DNA from: a virus
IMG/VR virus record: IMGVR_UViG_3300045988_033140
Span: 41,447-105,446 of that record
Reading direction: 5' to 3' (one strand)
Length of the DNA stretch: 64,000 nucleotides
Shown here: in pieces, positions 3,562 to 55,254 of the stretch
Position numbering within the stretch: position 1 is the stretch's first letter
Layout of the letters: each line of letters starts with the position of its first letter
Made by a program: the position numbers and the translations under genes
The notes under the pieces: generated by a model
The model's database searches: none
Seen by the model: only the letters and a program-made list of their open reading frames with translations
Told to the model about the DNA's origin: nothing

Positions 3562-4167
3562 GTGTTATATGGATATGCAAGGGTTTCATCAAGAGATCAA
3601 AATCTAGACCGATAGATTATTGCATTAACCGATGCAGGCGTAGATAAAGATAATATCTTCGTCGATAAACAATCAGGTAAGGATTTCAATCGTCCAGCAT
3701 ACTAGGATTTAGTGAGTACGATTCAGCCAAATGATATGATTATTATTAAAAGCATTGATAGATTAGGTCGTAATTACTCAGAGATTCTAGAACAATGGGG
3801 TTTAATTACTAAGACCAAGAAAGTAGATATTAAAGTATTAGATATGCCATTATTAGACACGTCATATTGTAAAGACGTTATGGGTACATTTATCTCTGAT
3901 CTTGTCTTATAGGTATTATCCTTCTAGGCTGAACAAGAGAGAACCTATATTAAGCAACGATAGGCTGAAGGAATTGCGGCCGCCAAGTCTAATGGCGTCT
4001 AGTTTGGTAGACCAAGGAAACCTCTTCCCTCGAATTTCGAGGAATTATACCAGCGTTTCCGCAAGAATGAACCAATTACTAGACTCGCGAAAGAATGTCC
4101 AGAAATCTCAGAATCTACATTACGGCTCCGCTTATAGGAAAGATTTGATTTGGACAGAAAAAGATAA
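3562..4167 (+). CDS. Serine recombinase (resolvase/invertase family), 201 aa, with 8 in-frame TAG codons read as Gln
   Basis: N-terminus [17 protein letters not shown][TAG]IIAL matches the resolvase catalytic motif (Y-G-Y-x-R-V-S-x-x-x-Q-x-L-D-x-Q). TAGs fall at conserved Q positions ([35 protein letters not shown]). GTG start 5 nt after GAGGTGA. Under the standard code this appears as three small fragments (3712..3912, 3902..4204). Confidence 0.8.
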
Positions 4168-4216
4168 TCAATCTTCCTTTTGTTTGATATATTATATACA
4201 ATAAGGAGGAATTATT

Positions 4217-4600
4217 ATGCCAGAAATTGTGATTCAAATTATCCAGGTGTGTGTTATTCCTTTACTCGGTATCTTGACTAAATTCCTCGTGGATTATTTA
4301 TCCGCAAAACGAGATGAAATTAACTCTAAGACCGACAATGAGATTGCTCAGAAATATACCAATATGATTTATCAGACTGTCGTTGATTGCGTTATTGCAA
4401 CCAATCAGACCTATGTAGATAGCTTGAAGAAATCTGGAAGCTTCGATGAAGCAGCTCAGAAGGAAGCATTTAACCGCACAATGAACGCTATTATGACTAT
4501 TCTAAGTGACGATGCTAAGGAATATATTACCGAAGCTACAGGTGACTTAAATACTTATCTCACTCAGTTAATCGAGGCCGAGGTTAATAAGCGTAAATAA
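4217..4600 (+). CDS. Holin_LLH-family protein (phage holin superfamily 6-like), single N-terminal TM
   Basis: 127-aa ORF with AAGGAGG RBS and an N-terminal hydrophobic helix. The conserved LKKSGSFDEAAQKEAF block is typical of LL-H-type holins. Confidence 0.5.
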   Translation: MPEIVIQIIQVCVIPLLGILTKFLVDYLSAKRDEINSKTDNEIAQKYTNMIYQTVVDCVIATNQTYVDSLKKSGSFDEAAQKEAFNRTMNAIMTILSDDAKEYITEATGDLNTYLTQLIEAEVNKRK

Positions 4601-4608
4601 CAAGAAAA

Positions 4609-4640
4609 AGGGAGCCTAATAGGCTCCCTATATTTTTTTT
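4609..4640 (+). terminator. Rho-independent terminator (AGGGAGCCT-aat-AGGCTCCCT + T9)
   Basis: GC-rich hairpin followed by a T-run immediately after the 4600 stop. Confidence 0.75.
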
Positions 4641-4745
4641 TCAAAAAAATTGGCAAAATTTTTGGCAAAAATGTAAAATCGTCCATAGACGATTTTCATA
4701 TACTAATGAAAGGTCAAAGGAAATATTTTTAGGAGGTAAAAAATT

Positions 4746-5144
4746 TTGGCAACTAATTATCCATACTATCCACAGCAACCTATGTATCCAAGACCAGGTA
4801 TTCAATATGTGGATCAGACCTAGCCGCAAATGGGTATTAAAGGCCGGCCTGTATCTTCTATTGAAGAGGCCCGTGCCATTAGCATTGATTTCGATGGCTC
4901 TGTATTTTATTTTCCTGATTTAGCAAATAGACGTATTTATACTAAACAAATAAACATGGATGGCACAGCCAGTCTTAATGTTTATGAGCTAAAGAATGAG
5001 CCAGTCGTCAGCTCTCCTCAGTATGTTACTAGAGAAGAGTTTGAGACTACATTAGCGCAATTAAAACAAGCTATGTTAGGAAAGGAGCCAGAATCTCAGC
5101 CCGCATCGGTATAGCCGCAGTAGACTGAGAAATTTAAGTTTTAA
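4746..5144 (+). CDS. Hypothetical Pro/Tyr/Gln-rich protein, 132 aa, 3 in-frame TAG (Gln)
   Basis: TTG start 9 nt after AGGAGG. The frame is open through TAGs at codons 26, 126 and 129 and ends at TAA. The track shows only the 4830..5114 fragment. Confidence 0.45.
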
Positions 5145-5157
5145 GGAGACATGAATT

Positions 5158-52644: not shown

Positions 52645-52655
52645 TCTTTATATAT

Positions 52656-52684
52656 ATTATAAAATATATTATTATAAAAATAAA
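52656..52684 (-). promoter_or_regulatory. Sigma70-like promoter (TTTATT-17-TATAAT) fused to the terminator hairpin at 52683..52715
   Basis: Seen on the minus strand. Confidence 0.45.
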
Positions 52685-52719
52685 GAGACTCTTATCAGCT
52701 AGATAAGAGTCTCTTGTAT

Positions 52720-53106
52720 TTAGTTTTCTAGTCCAATAGGAACGACATCCATAACACTATCGGGATACAAACTCCATCCGCCCCAAGCTTTCTTACTACC
52801 TTGAATTTCAGCTAGCTTTTGATTAGCGTCGATCATATCTGCTACATAGATAAGCGTATCGTCGTTAAACTGGTGTGACTGTGACATTTGCGTAATAATT
52901 GTTCGTTGAGTTTCAAAGGAAGCCAAAAAGCTTCTATACTCGCAGGTAGTTAAAAGCATTGCCAATGCAATAATAACTGCTACTATTCCAGTAAGCAGTG
53001 TACTTACAAGATAGAGTGTGCTATCCCAACAACTCTTATTGAGTGCCTTCAATGAAACACCAAAGACGATGATACAAATAAAAAGAATAATACCCCAGTA
53101 AAGCAT
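52720..53106 (-). CDS. Small membrane protein (128 aa, 2 TM)
   Basis: ATG 8 nt after AAGGAG. Confidence 0.4.
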   Translation of the reverse strand: MLYWGIILFICIIVFGVSLKALNKSCWDSTLYLVSTLLTGIVAVIIALAMLLTTCEYRSFLASFETQRTIITQMSQSHQFNDDTLIYVADMIDANQKLAEIQGSKKAWGGWSLYPDSVMDVVPIGLEN

Positions 53107-53118
53107 AATCTATACTCC

Positions 53119-53274
53119 TTAATCTTCAAAATGATTGGCAAGGTGTAAAAACATAAAAGAAAAATTTCCTGCAATAAAACCAGTAATATAAATAGCAGAA
53201 GGAGGGACTATTGTTGCTAGCATAGAGCCAACAACAATAGTAATCAGCCACAGACCGTAGAAGATAATTCTCAT
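53119..53274 (-). CDS. Tiny membrane protein (51 aa)
   Basis: Its ATG overlaps the RNA ligase TGA (ATGA). One long hydrophobic stretch. The track ORF 53126..53509 in this region is considered spurious. Confidence 0.3.
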   Translation of the reverse strand: MRIIFYGLWLITIVVGSMLATIVPPSAIYITGFIAGNFSFMFLHLANHFED

Positions 53275-54539
53275 ACTTCGTCCTGTGCCTCCTCCATATC
53301 GGGAGTAGTCTCAGTCTCTTTGATAATACCCTCAAGTACCTTGAACTCGTAAGTCTTAGACTTGAAAGCAGTGAAGGTGCGGCGGTTAACGATACGAACC
53401 ACAACGCCCTCTTTAACATGAGTTTTGCCGATAGGATCGGCCAAGTCCTCGAAATACTTGTTAATGCGGTCCTGCAAGTCCTCGGCAGTAGTGAACTTGA
53501 AGTTCTCAATCACCGGGACACGATTAAAGCCATGCTTCTCACACCAAGCAGTAATCTCGTCAGGAGTCCACTCGCGCTGACCATTCTCGGAAGTAATGCG
53601 ATAAATCCACATATGAGACTCACCGGGCTTGCAGCCGTAGGAGAAGATAGACTTCTTACCGAACAACTTTTGGAAAGCCTTATCTTTTAGCTTGGAGTTA
53701 TCGCCGATAGGCATGATGGTATCGTTCTCAGAGGGACCGTAGTACCCCACTACCTCGTAAAAGACCTCCATACCAGGATCAAGATGGGGTTTCAATGCCT
53801 CATGGTGAGACATACGAAATAGATCATTGCCGTAGTAGCCCTGAGAGTTCTCAGTTACAACGCAACGGCGCGTACCGAGAACATAAGCCTGCTTCAGACG
53901 CTTCTTCATATGGAATAGACGACGGAAGAAGCCATTAGGTAGCTCAGCAAAGGTGTTCATGGATCGCTGAGAAGTGCCATGCATCTTAAGAGTCATATTC
54001 AGCTCATCGCCGGGACGGAACTTATCCAGATTGTATGCAAGCTGCTCGGTGTCAGTGTGCATTGCAAACTCAGGATAGGTAATACCCTCTGCCTTACGAC
54101 CCTTGTAGGAAGTCTTAGGAGTGGTGCTCGGAGTCTTACGCTTAGGGATATACTTACGGCAGAACTCCTTGCCATTGATAGTATTTACCTTATTTCCGTT
54201 CTTCCAATGCTGATTGCCAAAAACCTCATAGACACGCTCAAGAGAGATGACGATGCCAGAACTCTCGTTGCCACGAAGCTTGATAGCCCGCACGTGAGAG
54301 CTATTTTCCAAGTATCCGCCTTGAGGAGTGCCATCAAGATTCTTCCGATATAGGGTGAAAGCGTCACCGAACCATCTCTCGATCTCTCCGTCCGTAGGAA
54401 GATAAAGCACTAACTCATTCTCCTTCATATTGGGTCCAACAATAACACCTTCATTAAAACAATCTGCCAACCACAGATTATCAGAATTAGGATCTTTATG
54501 GAGATTATTCAGTTTTGTCACTAGAGCGTAATAAGCCAT
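53271..54539 (-). CDS. ATP-dependent RNA ligase (Rnl2/Rnl5-like nucleotidyltransferase with KxHG motif)
   Basis: Motif I LKMHGTS matches T4 Rnl2 (KIHGTN). N-terminal OB-like domain. 422 aa. GC-richer than surroundings. Its 5' end overlaps the upstream homing-endonuclease gene by ~38 nt, so the true start may be internal. Confidence 0.55.
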   Translation of the reverse strand: MAYYALVTKLNNLHKDPNSDNLWLADCFNEGVIVGPNMKENELVLYLPTDGEIERWFGDAFTLYRKNLDGTPQGGYLENSSHVRAIKLRGNESSGIVISLERVYEVFGNQHWKNGNKVNTINGKEFCRKYIPKRKTPSTTPKTSYKGRKAEGITYPEFAMHTDTEQLAYNLDKFRPGDELNMTLKMHGTSQRSMNTFAELPNGFFRRLFHMKKRLKQAYVLGTRRCVVTENSQGYYGNDLFRMSHHEALKPHLDPGMEVFYEVVGYYGPSENDTIMPIGDNSKLKDKAFQKLFGKKSIFSYGCKPGESHMWIYRITSENGQREWTPDEITAWCEKHGFNRVPVIENFKFTTAEDLQDRINKYFEDLADPIGKTHVKEGVVVRIVNRRTFTAFKSKTYEFKVLEGIIKETETTPDMEEAQDEV

Positions 54540-55254
54540 TTAATTCCTGTTCCTCCTCTTTACTAATTCGTTTATAGATAAAACCTTTATATGTATTTCT
54601 CTATCCATTTAATACTCGATAAATTGCTTTATCGGTCTTTGCTTCTGGGCAAAATTCTCGATACGCCGAAATTGCAGTAGGAAAAATAGCTAATAATTGA
54701 CCATCTTTATCATACTTGGCAATCGGCTATCTTCTTGCTTCCAGTGCCTTTTTCTTTGCATCTTCTCGATGACCATCTTGATAAGCTTGCTTTAATTTTT
54801 CACTTCGCTCTTCTTTTAAGGAAGGATTGTCGATAAACTTCTATTTTAGAGAGTTGCTAATCTTTTCATTTCTTTCGTGACTATAAGTCCGATTTTTAGC
54901 AGCTAAAGTCATATGTCGTCGATATTCTGGATCCTCCCATAGCAACTTAACAGATTCGCCTATCTATTTTCTAACTTCTTCCGTTTGATAATTTCCGCCC
55001 GGAGAGACATTGTAACCAAAATCTGTATCTAAAAGATTTAATTCTTTGATTGTGTCTATCTCTTTTTGTTGAATTAAATCTTCATTATCAGACTCTAATA
55101 TCACTTCTTTAGTTACATTTTCCCAGCCATATTTTTCTATAGCATATCCGACGCGCTATCCTTTATATCTTCCTGATGCTCGCTGTTCGATAGAATTTTT
55201 AGTAATTCCGCAGTATTTTTTCCCATTTGGGAAAGTGTATAAATAACAGATCAT
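54502..55254 (-). CDS. Free-standing GIY-YIG homing endonuclease (I-TevI-like with NUMOD-like region), 250 aa, about 7 in-frame TAG
   Basis: ATG 8 nt after AGGAGG. The N-terminus reads MICYLYTFPNGKKYCGITKNSIEQRASGRYKG[Q]RVGYAIEKYGWENV. It is followed by NUMOD-like KNRTYSHERNEKISNSLK[Q]K. The frame is open only if TAG is sense. No listed track ORF corresponds to this frame. Confidence 0.65.

What the first reader, a model, noticed from the sequence alone, without database searches (positions are those of the whole stretch)
3562..55254. TAG usage is strongly partitioned: absent from the biggest replication genes, dominant in late, lysis, homing-endonuclease and small genes
PolIII-alpha (1298 aa), both topoisomerase subunits, primase, DnaB, ligase, NadV and others contain no TAG at all. 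By contrast the recombinase uses TAG for 8 of 15 Gln, GIY-YIG gene 29517..30431 carries about 14, the second HEG about 7, RuvC about 11 and the endolysin about 5. Only one or a few TAGs occur in nrdD, the recJ-like gene and a phosphoesterase. This pattern suggests recoding acts as a timing or host-dependence switch for late functions, and possibly keeps selfish homing endonucleases silent until suppression is available.
Basis: seen in the sequence. Interest (0 to 1): 0.75.

Follow-up and report, generated by a model that had tools for sequence, protein, structure and literature searches.

The report
Amber-recoded gut phage: TAG confined to late genes
This is part of a roughly 145 kb gut phage that reads the TAG stop codon as glutamine but keeps TAG out of its early replication and metabolism genes, a pattern already described for other recoded phages.

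Summary
The partition is real. With TAA and TGA as the only stops, 78 window genes carry 62 in-frame TAG among 731 Gln-type codons. These are far more clumped than chance (permutation P<5e-5), and the clumping is unrelated to gene length.

TAG means Gln. TAG columns are replaced mainly by Q in relatives, and 4 of 6 recombinase TAGs align with Q in S. aureus Sin.

- recombinase 7, RuvC 9, second GIY-YIG gene 5;
- holin 0, and the endolysin only 5 of 33;
- small genes are not enriched.

The window holds almost no virion genes. The structural module fetched from near-identical contigs does use TAG (21 of 26 genes, 24% of Gln codons), but the putative major head protein and other probably abundant proteins have none.

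TAG-free genes sit behind about 35 copies of one sigma-A-like promoter. That promoter is absent from the TAG-rich blocks. The suppressor tRNA(CUA), in a tRNA array just beyond the window, lies directly behind one copy, not behind a late promoter.

AT-richness predicts TAG use even better than module does.

The pattern, the timing model and even the homing-endonuclease idea are published (Borges et al.; phAss-1). This is a new member of a known kind.

The parts
3562..4167 (+). Small serine recombinase (resolvase/invertase type). 7 TAG of 14 Gln-type codons.
   Evidence: Pfam Resolvase hit, E 1.6e-28, spanning the TAGs. 4 of 6 aligned TAGs correspond to Q in S. aureus Sin, PDB 2r0q. Enrichment P=6e-5.
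4217..4600 (+). Holin, 0 TAG.
   Evidence: phrog_13712 holin, E 9.5e-33. Counts.
4746..5391 (+). Two small genes of unknown function (4746-5144 and 5158-5391), 3 TAG each.
   Evidence: phrog_21718 hit for the first.
7626..7669 (.). Bidirectional terminator-like hairpin between the convergent plus-strand and minus-strand gene blocks.
   Evidence: 18-bp stem seen on both strands.
7672..8103 (-). Unknown 143-aa gene, 3 TAG. It is the last gene of the minus-strand block.
8179..8658 (-). RuvC-like Holliday junction resolvase. 9 TAG of 14 Gln-type codons.
   Evidence: Pfam RuvC. phrog_159/827. Enrichment P=3e-7. It lies 9.3 kb from the nearest early-type promoter.
11118..13370 (-). Anaerobic ribonucleotide reductase NrdD, 1 TAG.
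   Evidence: PDB 8p23, E 1.7e-61. Pfam NRDD listed.
13983..17879 (-). DNA polymerase III alpha (SPbeta YorL-like). 0 TAG in 51 Gln codons.
19384..20148 (-). Lipoprotein-like protein with a Phage_lysozyme2 domain, 1 TAG.
20186..21934 (-). RecJ-like DHH exonuclease, 3 TAG of 26 Gln-type codons.
21946..24776 (-). Primase (21946-23049), a small ORF, and DnaB-like helicase (23235-24776). 0 TAG.
29517..30431 (-). Protein with an N-terminal TM helix, a coiled coil and a C-terminal GIY-YIG nuclease domain. 14 TAG of 25 Gln-type codons, GC 0.325.
   Evidence: Pfam GIY-YIG at residues 212-293. TIGR01453 matches the catalytic domain only. Conserved in all contigs that carry the same ThyA. Enrichment P=2e-9.
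30435..30479 (-). Perfect 20-bp hairpin ending 3 nt before the ATG of the GIY-YIG gene.
31036..36553 (-). ATP-dependent ligase, GyrA-like and GyrB-like topoisomerase subunits. 0 TAG.
37200..38929 (-). Lysis cassette: endolysin (lysozyme + amidase + SLH domains, 5 TAG of 33) and a TM protein (2 TAG). Terminator-like hairpins flank it at 38985-38960 and 37195-37160.
42712..43398 (-). Metallophosphoesterase-like gene, 1 TAG.
49500..51221 (-). NadV (NAMPT), 0 TAG. Part of a TAG-free NAD-salvage cluster at 48326-52644.
54505..55254 (-). GIY-YIG homing-endonuclease-like gene (249 aa, N-terminal catalytic domain). 5 TAG, GC 0.34.
   Evidence: Pfam GIY-YIG. phrog_314 over residues 1-234. Start site.
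17889..17944 (-). Early-type promoter copy upstream of PolIII-alpha.
   Evidence: PWM 38.9 bits.
25320..25375 (-). Early-type promoter copy.
   Evidence: PWM 47.8 bits. Also found by the consensus scan.
27794..27849 (-). Early-type promoter copy.
   Evidence: PWM 38.0 bits.
30991..31046 (-). Weaker early-type promoter copy upstream of the unit that contains the 29517-30431 gene, ThyA and DHFR.
   Evidence: PWM 20.0 bits. 11 of 12 consensus positions plus TG.
32194..32249 (-). Early-type promoter copy upstream of the ligase gene.
   Evidence: PWM 32.5 bits.
37098..37153 (-). Early-type promoter copy, downstream of the lysis cassette and upstream of RNase H.
   Evidence: PWM 33.4 bits.
40994..41049 (-). 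Early-type promoter copy.
   Evidence: PWM 25.7 bits.
44349..44404 (-). Early-type promoter copy containing the exact 23-mer TATAATATATATAGAAAGTTAAG.
45753..45808 (-). Early-type promoter copy.
   Evidence: PWM 46.5 bits.
48258..48313 (-). Early-type promoter copy.
   Evidence: PWM 50.4 bits.
52636..52691 (-). Early-type promoter copy.
   Evidence: PWM 50.0 bits.
56231..56286 (-). Early-type promoter copy containing the exact 23-mer. It heads the unit that contains the 54505-55254 GIY-YIG gene.
60157..60212 (-). Early-type promoter copy containing the exact 23-mer.
62317..62372 (-). Early-type promoter copy.
   Evidence: PWM 45.8 bits.

Best explanation
The window is the replication and metabolism half of a roughly 145 kb siphovirus-like gut phage. 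Its replication module resembles that of SPbeta and Enterococcus phage EF1, and phAss-1 is its nearest described relative. The phage uses genetic code 15, in which TAG is read as Gln.

Shown here:
- TAG is a sense codon that stands where Gln stands in homologues.
- Close relatives carry one tRNA(CUA) in an array of 32-36 tRNAs that starts about 100 nt beyond the window's end.
- That tRNA is the first gene behind a copy of a sigma-A-like promoter, TTGaaA-N17-TATAAT-ATATATAGAAAGTTAAGG. The promoter recurs about 35 times on the minus strand (14 copies in the window) in front of TAG-free genes. It is absent from the structural block, the DGR, the plus-strand block at 2.2-7.65 kb, and the far end of the minus-strand block at 7.6-17.9 kb.

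Inferred:
- Host RNA polymerase transcribes the promoter-rich region first. Those genes must be translated while host RF1 still terminates at TAG, so selection keeps them free of TAG.
- The suppressor tRNA accumulates from the same early transcription. Once it outcompetes RF1, TAG-bearing genes become translatable. These are the virion genes, endolysin, RuvC, recombinase, DGR reverse transcriptase and the GIY-YIG genes embedded in early-type operons.
- A second force acts among the late genes. Each TAG is a costly, leaky codon. Abundant proteins (putative major head protein, scaffold-like protein, a virion structural protein) avoid it and use CAG only. Low-copy and selfish or accessory genes tolerate it or accumulate it along with AT-rich, CAA-preferring codon usage.

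Sequence alone cannot tell whether the partition is an evolved timer or a passive result of these two selective pressures.
For: TAG is a sense codon:
- Conserved domains span the TAGs.
- Frame 0 of seven TAG-bearing genes has 46 TAG and no TAA or TGA.
- ORFs of 2845-2902 codons carry 27-29 TAG.

TAG means Gln:
- In tblastn of TAG-bearing proteins against related contigs, TAG columns are replaced by Q far more often than by any other residue. At >=95% identity: Q 155, E 10, D 7. At 80-95%: Q 170, K 10. Below 80%: Q 208, with no other residue above 50.
- Recombinase against Sin: 4 of 6 TAG align with Q.

Suppressor tRNA:
- ARAGORN finds it in five relatives whose flanking SPOR-domain protein is 92-99% identical, plus one more distant relative.
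- Rfam tRNA score 54.5 bits.
- 97% conserved among these copies.

Partition:
- Permutation P<5e-5.
- Structural module 0.24 TAG per Gln-type codon, against 0.076 in the window's minus-strand block, or 6 in 514 after removing seven outliers.
- Module odds ratio 2.24 after controlling for GC3, P=1.6e-6.

Promoter class:
- The exact 23-mer occurs 3 times against 0 in 100 shuffles.
- About 35 PWM hits, all outside the TAG-rich blocks.
- Promoter-proximal genes have 2 TAG in 200 Gln-type codons; promoter-distal genes have 55 in 602. Correlation with distance rho=0.45, P=4e-4.
- One copy lies about 116 nt upstream of the suppressor tRNA.

Abundant late proteins are TAG-free and use almost only CAG. 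The putative major head protein is also an intact CDS in phAss-1's code-11 annotation.

The published model and pattern are the same.
Against: - There is no transcript, protein or tRNA abundance data, so 'early' and 'late' rest on promoter motifs, gene order and function.
- GC3 is a stronger predictor of TAG use than module (odds ratio 0.35 per SD, P=2.6e-14). TAG fraction tracks CAA preference (rho=0.66). Off-frame TAG is also commoner in TAG-bearing genes (13.1 against 8.2 per kb). Composition therefore explains part of the pattern.
- TAGs are not concentrated near gene starts, as an optimised translational block might predict.
- The holin has no TAG and the endolysin is only mildly recoded.
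- The suppressor tRNA was seen in relatives, not in the window's own contig. That stretch could not be fetched.
- No release factor or aminoacyl-tRNA synthetase gene was found in the parts annotated.
Confidence: 0.7

Rival explanations
1. Passive codon-usage explanation. TAG is simply the least favoured Gln codon. It builds up by AT-biased drift (CAG to TAG) wherever selection on translation is weak, that is in low-copy, accessory and selfish genes. It is purged in proportion to expression level. It has no role in timing.
For: TAG fraction correlates with low GC3 (rho=-0.48), low codon-adaptation score (rho=-0.49) and CAA preference (rho=0.66). GC3 is the stronger term in the regression. Abundant late proteins are TAG-free. 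TAG shows no 5' bias. The most TAG-rich genes are the AT-richest (GC 0.29-0.34).
Against: Module still matters after GC3 (odds ratio 2.24, P=1.6e-6). In the lowest GC3 third, 15 of 16 structural genes carry TAG against 10 of 28 minus-strand-block genes. AT-rich, CAA-preferring replication genes (primase 12 CAA/5 CAG, guanylate kinase, DHFR, ligase) have no TAG. The association with promoter class and promoter distance is not predicted by drift alone.
Confidence: 0.2
2. Ancestry explanation. TAG-free genes were acquired recently from standard-code bacteria or phages and have not had time to gain TAG. TAG-rich genes are old residents, or they move among recoded phages.
For: Several TAG-free genes look foreign. 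SPFH/flotillin 41157-42653 has GC 0.50 with 33 CAG and 0 CAA. DUF7788, RNA ligase and NadV have GC 0.45-0.48. The GIY-YIG genes have their own AT-rich composition.
Against: The core SPbeta-like replication genes (YorL polymerase, DnaB-like helicase, primase, YorF, YorH) are ancestral to the lineage and have typical phage GC (0.37-0.39), yet they are TAG-free. The virion genes are equally ancestral and are TAG-rich.
Confidence: 0.07
3. No recoding. The TAG-bearing genes are pseudogenes or strings of short ORFs. Alternatively, TAG encodes something other than Gln, as the tRNA's long variable arm might suggest (Ser, Leu or Tyr).
For: The tRNA(CUA) is 91 nt long with a 20-nt variable region, as in type II tRNAs. 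The single nrdD TAG aligns with A or E in PDB homologues.
Against: Frame 0 has 46 TAG and no TAA or TGA, while the other frames are full of them. Conserved domains are continuous across the TAGs. Q dominates at TAG columns, and S, L and Y are not enriched. Comparison with Sin gives 4 of 6 Q. The tRNA has U1:U72, G73 and U35, which are compatible with Gln identity (plus general knowledge of GlnRS identity elements).
Confidence: 0.03

Closest known systems
Stop-codon-recoded gut phages with a code switch for late genes (Borges et al., bioRxiv 10.1101/2021.08.26.457843: crAss-like, Lak, Garnet, Amethyst, Topaz, Agate, Jade, Sapphire)
   Same: In-frame recoded stops are concentrated in structural and lysis genes. 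The replication machinery uses the standard code in several of these clades. The phage encodes its own suppressor tRNA. That paper proposes that translation of late genes waits for the code change, and reports that a homing endonuclease inside an early gene is preferentially recoded.
   Different: This is a different lineage, with an SPbeta/EF1-like replication module. No release factor or aaRS 'code change module' was found. The lysis genes are not the most recoded class here: the holin has 0 TAG and the endolysin 15%. The recombinase is TAG-rich, whereas integrases of Garnet and Topaz phages avoid recoded stops. The link to a repeated early promoter was worked out here.
Phage phAss-1 (OQ749652) and the proposed Phassvirus group (Babkin et al. 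2023, PMC10607447)
   Same: It is a human-gut phage of 136 kb with a tape-measure gene of about 3000 aa and 36 tRNAs including tRNA-Sup(CTA). NadV, PRPP synthetase and nicotinamidase genes lie next to the tRNA array on the same strand. TAG occurs in 41 ORFs, 'mostly virion genes and several DNA-processing enzymes'. The portal is 39% identical and the putative head protein 51% identical.
   Different: There is no nucleotide-level similarity, so this is not the same genus. phAss-1 has three suppressor tRNAs of normal length (the one examined is 74 nt). Here there is one, 91 nt long, with an unrelated sequence.
Delayed translation of the T4 intron endonuclease I-TevI (cited from general knowledge; not checked here)
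   Same: A GIY-YIG endonuclease gene is embedded in early or middle transcripts and is kept untranslated until late. A hairpin next to the start codon is also present at 30435-30479.
   Different: T4 does this with mRNA structure and a late promoter, not with stop codons. The gene at 29517-30431 lacks the usual homing-endonuclease architecture.
Enterococcus phage EF1-like and Bacillus SPbeta-like phages
   Same: The PolIII-alpha is 39-40% identical. YorF and YorH family proteins are present. The portal and head protein are homologous.
   Different: According to Babkin et al., phage EF1 shows no stop-codon recoding. The recoding state of the SPbeta-like phages was not checked here.

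Membership tests
Code-15 (TAG to Gln) recoded phage | In-frame TAG inside conserved genes, with TAA and TGA as the only terminators | tested here: met
   Pfam domains span the TAGs. Frame 0 has 46 TAG, 0 TAA and 0 TGA. Stops are 125 TAA and 27 TGA.
Code-15 (TAG to Gln) recoded phage | TAG positions correspond to Gln in homologues | tested here: met
   Q dominates at every level of divergence. 4 of 6 TAG align with Q against Sin. The nrdD site is uninformative.
Code-15 (TAG to Gln) recoded phage | Phage-encoded suppressor tRNA with anticodon CUA | tested here: met
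   Present in five close relatives and one distant relative in the tRNA array just beyond the window. Not in the window, and not retrievable for the window's own contig.
Code-15 (TAG to Gln) recoded phage | Recoded stops enriched in structural or lysis genes and depleted in replication genes | tested here: met
   0.24 against 0.076 TAG per Gln-type codon. 21 of 26 genes carry TAG in the structural module against 13 of 70 in the window's minus-strand block. Exceptions: holin, putative head protein.
Code-15 (TAG to Gln) recoded phage | Standard-code host, and suppression that depends on time after infection | not testable with these tools
   The host is unknown. A Bacillota host is suggested by the SLH domain and by the relatives. 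There are no expression data.
Code-15 (TAG to Gln) recoded phage | Code-change module with a release factor or aaRS (optional; seen in some clades) | tested here: inconclusive
   None was found among the proteins scanned. About 4 kb of the genome was not seen, and many ORFs were not scanned.
phAss-1-like group (Caudoviricetes code 15 clade) | Homologous virion proteins, shared synteny, a giant tape-measure gene and a large tRNA array with Sup-CTA | tested here: met
   Portal 39% and head-like protein 51% identical. NAD genes lie next to the tRNA array. ORF of 2845-2902 aa.
Genus Phassvirus | Nucleotide identity of the order reported within the genus (80-86%) | tested here: not met
   Megablast of 24 kb found no phAss-1 match.
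GIY-YIG homing endonuclease | GIY-YIG catalytic domain of the I-TevI/Seg type | tested here: met
   Both genes are hit by PF01541 and by homing-endonuclease PHROGs. TIGR01453 hits 29517-30431.
GIY-YIG homing endonuclease | N-terminal catalytic domain followed by a DNA-binding region | tested here: inconclusive
   Met for 54505-55254 (phrog_314 over residues 1-234). Not met for 29517-30431, where the nuclease domain is C-terminal, behind a TM helix and a coiled coil.
GIY-YIG homing endonuclease | Presence/absence polymorphism among close relatives (mobility) | tested here: not met
   Both genes are present in every contig sampled. A third GIY-YIG gene (L002 19879-20310; 3 TAG of 6 Gln-type codons) is polymorphic and is absent from the window.

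The most novel reading that the evidence does not exclude
In this lineage, accumulation of the suppressor tRNA may be the master timer of the whole late programme. The tRNA is made from the same host-type promoter as the early genes. TAG then gates the virion and lysis proteins, and also every DNA-manipulating accessory or selfish gene embedded in early operons (GIY-YIG nucleases, RuvC, resolvase, DGR reverse transcriptase). It may also gate a phage sigma-like factor carrying 5 TAG that heads the structural operon, which would place the code switch upstream of late transcription. The number of TAGs per gene may in addition set protein stoichiometry.
Probability: 0.2. Interest if true: 0.55.

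Novelty: new member of a known kind. Interest (0 to 1): 0.3.

Why it matters
The finding adds an undescribed lineage to the known set of code-15 phages. This lineage is abundant in metagenomes: dozens of IMG/VR, ENA and Logan contigs carry it.

It is an unusually clean case for experiments. A single suppressor tRNA sits behind a recognisable early promoter. About 35 copies of that promoter mark the TAG-free regulon. An endolysin cassette and nuclease genes lie inside early-type operons, so their translation should depend on the code switch.

It also shows that composition and probable protein abundance shape TAG use at least as much as module does. That cautions against reading every such partition as an evolved timer.

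In practice, such genomes must be annotated with table 15, or their virion, lysis and nuclease genes will appear fragmented.

Tried and rejected
- **Pseudogene or no-recoding reading:** rejected on the frame-specific stop counts.
- **Gene-length explanation:** rejected (rho=0.03).
- **TAG as Ser, Leu or Tyr** (suggested by the 91-nt tRNA): rejected on the alignments.
- **RuvC against PDB:** no hit.
- **The nrdD TAG site:** uninformative.
- **Theta/HDV-like ribozyme or other Rfam family next to the suppressor tRNA:** none found.
- **Sigma-factor identity of the 350-aa, 5-TAG protein:** supported only by phrog_5767. Pfam, NCBIfam and PDB gave nothing, so it is kept only as a lead.
- **Terminase identity of the 579-aa protein:** not confirmed.
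- **Major-capsid identity of the 345-aa TAG-free protein:** inferred from position and conservation only.
- **Mobility of the two GIY-YIG genes in the window:** not seen.
- **5' clustering of TAG:** not seen.
- **An ORF with 6 TAG between the DGR reverse transcriptase and its target (window -701..-207):** probably spurious, because that stretch holds the template repeat.
- **The large protein-database searches and structure prediction:** not used, because they would not change the verdict.

Full report
**What the window is.**
The window has 39% GC and contains no tRNA gene. Genes run on the plus strand from 1.6 to 7.65 kb and on the minus strand from 7.67 to 64 kb.

It matches ENA metagenome contig ERZ28622034 scaffold_44 (144,539 bp), with no mismatch over 13.5 kb of overlap at one end and 2 mismatches over 11.6 kb at the other. 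Nearly identical contigs occur in many Logan, ENA and IMG/VR samples. No GenBank phage is similar at the DNA level.

The nearest described proteins are:
- PolIII-alpha of Enterococcus EF1-like phages (40% identity) and SPbeta-like phages (39%);
- the portal (39%) and a head-like protein (51%) of phage phAss-1.

Pfam and PHROG scans show that the window is almost entirely replication, nucleotide metabolism, NAD salvage and RNA-repair genes.
- Replication and nucleotide metabolism: PolIII-alpha, RecD-like helicase, RecJ-like nuclease, primase, DnaB, AAA_24, DHFR, ThyA, ligase, GyrA/B-like subunits, RNase H, dUTPase, NrdD.
- Other: PhoH, Thg1-like, NadE, NadV, PRPP synthetase, nicotinamidase, RNA ligase.
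- The exceptions are a lysis cassette, a holin, a small serine recombinase, RuvC and two GIY-YIG genes.

**Checking the observation.**
I took TAA and TGA as the only stops. In seven TAG-bearing genes the reading frame holds 46 TAG and no TAA or TGA. The two other frames hold 167 TAA and 122 TGA. These are therefore not decaying genes.

| Gene | In-frame TAG |
|---|---|
| Recombinase | 7 of 14 Gln-type codons |
| RuvC | 9 of 14 |
| GIY-YIG 29517-30431 | 14 of 25 |
| Endolysin | 5 of 33 |
| Second GIY-YIG, CDS 54505-55254 | 5 |
| RecJ-like | 3 |
| NrdD | 1 |
| Phosphoesterase (42712-43398) | 1 |
| PolIII-alpha, both topoisomerase subunits, primase, DnaB, ligase, NadV | 0 |

The second GIY-YIG gene reaches 7 TAG only if the ORF is extended past a strong ribosome-binding site.

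Across 78 window genes there are 62 TAG among 731 Gln-type codons. The heterogeneity statistic is G=201.8. In 20,000 permutations of TAG among Gln positions the mean was 76.7 and the maximum 124. There are 62 TAG-free genes where 41 are expected. TAG fraction is unrelated to gene length (rho=0.03).

- the holin has no TAG;
- the endolysin is not significantly above the window average (P=0.14);
- genes shorter than 100 aa carry only 5 TAG in 19 genes.

**Which amino acid TAG encodes.**
I searched TAG-bearing proteins against related contigs with tblastn. TAG columns are replaced by Q far more often than by anything else:
- at 95% identity or more: 155 Q, 10 E, 7 D;
- at 80-95%: 170 Q, 10 K;
- below 80%: 208 Q, with no other residue above 50.

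**The rest of the genome.**
The window has almost no virion genes, so I walked outwards through IMG/VR contigs that are 94-98% identical in DNA to the window's source. I assembled a 141 kb composite with 152 genes.

*Upstream of the window:*
- First comes a diversity-generating retroelement.
- Beyond it lies a 38 kb plus-strand structural block. It includes a portal (phrog_2739, 9-10 TAG depending on the contig), a giant ORF of 2845-2902 aa (27-29 TAG), and tail-like proteins with 11-15 TAG.
- In that block 21 of 26 genes carry TAG, and TAG makes up 24% of Gln-type codons.
- In the window's minus-strand block the figure is 7.6%. It falls to 6 in 514 once RuvC, the two GIY-YIG genes, the endolysin, its TM neighbour, a 143-aa gene and RecJ are set aside.
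- The 342-345-aa protein in the major-capsid position has no TAG (15 CAG and 0-1 CAA). Its 226-aa neighbour (9 CAG, 0 CAA) and a virion structural protein (phrog_2729) also have none.

*Downstream of the window:*
- About 100 nt past its end an array of 32-36 tRNAs plus a tmRNA begins.
- Beyond the array lies a run of small TAG-free ORFs.

**The suppressor tRNA.**
One tRNA with anticodon CUA sits in the middle of the array. It is present in five close relatives and one more distant relative. It scores 54.5 bits with the Rfam tRNA model and is 97% conserved.

It is 91 nt long because of a 20-nt variable region. It has a U1:U72 mismatch and G73. It resembles neither the phage's own tRNA-Gln genes nor the 74-nt suppressor of phAss-1. 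No ribozyme or other Rfam family lies next to it.

**Promoter class.**
The spacers in front of many TAG-free genes share a motif: TTGaaA, 17 nt, TATAAT, then ATATATAGAAAGTTAAGG running into the ribosome-binding site.
- The exact 23-mer occurs three times in the window and never in 100 shuffles.
- A weight matrix finds about 35 copies, all on the minus strand. They lie between window position 17.9 kb and 93.7 kb on the composite, with two more beyond the far end of the structural block. Fourteen are in the window.
- There are none in the structural block, the DGR, the plus-strand block at 2.2-7.65 kb, or the last 10 kb of the minus-strand block, which ends with RuvC.
- Genes directly behind a copy hold 2 TAG in 200 Gln-type codons. 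Genes further downstream hold 55 in 602.
- TAG fraction rises with distance from the nearest upstream copy (rho=0.45, P=4e-4).
- One high-scoring copy lies about 116 nt upstream of the suppressor tRNA. The tRNA is therefore predicted to be made together with the TAG-free genes, not from a distinct late promoter.

The endolysin cassette is bracketed by terminator-like hairpins and has no such promoter. The 29517-30431 gene follows a perfect 20-bp hairpin that ends 3 nt before its ATG. The second GIY-YIG gene is the fourth gene of an early-type unit. All promoter and terminator calls are pattern matches, not measurements.

**What else predicts TAG.**
TAG fraction correlates with low GC3 (rho=-0.48), with low codon-adaptation score (rho=-0.49), and most strongly with preference for CAA over CAG (rho=0.66).

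In a binomial regression comparing the structural block with the minus-strand blocks, both terms are significant. The module odds ratio is 2.24 (P=1.6e-6). The GC3 odds ratio is 0.35 per SD (P=2.6e-14). The per-codon independence this assumes is optimistic. At gene level the contrast still holds within GC3 strata: 15 of 16 against 10 of 28 in the lowest stratum.

TAGs show no 5' bias within genes. The AT-richest genes are the most TAG-rich:
- the two GIY-YIG genes;
- a third, polymorphic GIY-YIG gene seen only in a relative (3 TAG of 6 Gln-type codons, GC 0.29);
- the DGR reverse transcriptase (11 TAG);
- the recombinase.

**Interpretation.**
The best-supported reading has two parts.
- Genes that must be translated before the suppressor tRNA can compete with RF1 are kept free of TAG.
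- Among the later genes TAG is tolerated in inverse proportion to how much protein is needed. It therefore piles up in low-copy virion parts and in accessory or selfish DNA-manipulating genes.

This fits the code-switch model. It does not show that the partition is an evolved timer rather than a by-product. A drift-only account fails to explain the TAG-free, AT-rich, CAA-preferring replication genes or the promoter association. A recent-acquisition account fits a few GC-rich genes, such as the SPFH gene, but not the ancestral SPbeta-like replication core.

**Comparison with the literature.**
- Borges et al. describe recoded stops in structural and lysis genes with standard-code replication genes in several clades. 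They propose the timing model. [quoted passage not shown]
- Babkin et al. describe phAss-1 and its relatives with TAG 'mostly in virion genes and several DNA-processing enzymes', suppressor tRNAs and no dedicated synthetase.
- The phAss-1 record shows the same layout of NAD-salvage genes next to a tRNA array.

The finding is therefore a correct recognition of a known phenomenon in an undescribed relative. The points that go beyond those papers are modest and unproven:
- the repeated early promoter that marks the TAG-free regulon and drives the suppressor tRNA;
- TAG avoidance in the probably most abundant late proteins;
- the TAG-rich recombinase, in contrast with the integrases in Borges et al.;
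- the long-armed suppressor tRNA;
- a possible sigma-like protein with 5 TAG at the head of the structural operon, which rests on one PHROG label only.

Noticed in passing
L003 5451-9396 (window about -2352 to 1593); template repeat L003 6967-7069, variable repeat L003 7695-7797 (window -108 to -6): There is a complete diversity-generating retroelement here. It has an RVT_1 reverse transcriptase (11 TAG) and a 103-nt template/variable repeat pair. All mismatches in the pair fall at template adenines. The variable repeat lies at the 3' end of the Big_3/DUF6273 protein whose gene runs into the window (1-1653, minus strand, 0 TAG).
   Followed up: yes
L034 5200-5290 and equivalents (about window 77.9 kb on the composite): The suppressor tRNA(CUA) is 91 nt long with a conserved 20-nt variable-region insert that can form a short hairpin. 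It has a U1:U72 mismatch and G73. It is unrelated in sequence to the 74-nt phAss-1 suppressor and to the phage's own tRNA-Gln genes. A long variable arm is unusual for a Gln-type tRNA.
   Followed up: partly
L007 4113-4186; L034 12833-12906; L036 6418-6492: ARAGORN calls tRNA-like genes with four-base anticodons (taaa, tgtt), which implies an 8-nt anticodon loop. Rfam tRNA scores are 34-38 bits. They may be pseudo-tRNAs or frameshift-type tRNAs. Rfam also reports a 122-nt tRNA hit at L007 1618-1739 that ARAGORN missed.
   Followed up: no
L034 8017-8362 and equivalents: A phage-encoded tmRNA (tag peptide DNNYFDSHMAA) sits inside the tRNA array. That is notable in a phage that reads through a stop codon.
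   Followed up: no
window 41157-42653 (-): An SPFH/flotillin-like gene has GC 0.50 and uses 33 CAG and 0 CAA. This is unlike its neighbours and suggests recent acquisition from a bacterium.
   Followed up: no
window 44914-54539 (-): This stretch holds a cluster of NAD-salvage genes (NadE, NadV, PRPP synthetase, nicotinamidase-like) and RNA-repair-type genes (Thg1-like, RNA ligase). PhoH and RlaP-like genes lie nearby. All are TAG-free and promoter-proximal. From general knowledge, the cluster resembles phage NAD-reconstitution counter-defence pathways.
   Followed up: no
composite -41594..-40542 (L216 5470-6594), outside the window: A 350-aa protein with 5 TAG heads the structural operon. It matches phrog_5767, labelled 'sigma factor' (E 8e-43), and has a C-terminal zinc-ribbon-like tail. 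Pfam, NCBIfam and PDB give nothing.
   Followed up: partly
composite 89421-90197 (+) = L162 3717-4493 (-): A lone opposite-strand ORF lies in the TAG-free early-like region. It is 258 aa long with 8 TAG and GC 0.33, and matches no family. It may be another mobile or late gene.
   Followed up: partly
window 37940-37969 (-): A perfect TTGACA-18-TATAAT match lies inside the endolysin gene, upstream of the TM-protein gene 37200-37523.
   Followed up: no
composite 73860-74519 (SPOR-domain gene; end at L007 254-256), -6813..-6235 and -3017..-2352: A few genes have a TAG 1-3 codons before the TAA or TGA stop. TAG may therefore still terminate these genes early in infection, with a short readthrough extension later.
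   Followed up: no
L007, within window-equivalent 73.0-73.9 kb (locus coordinates not determined): The source scaffold contains a short run of N (a scaffold gap) inside the tRNA array region.
   Followed up: no
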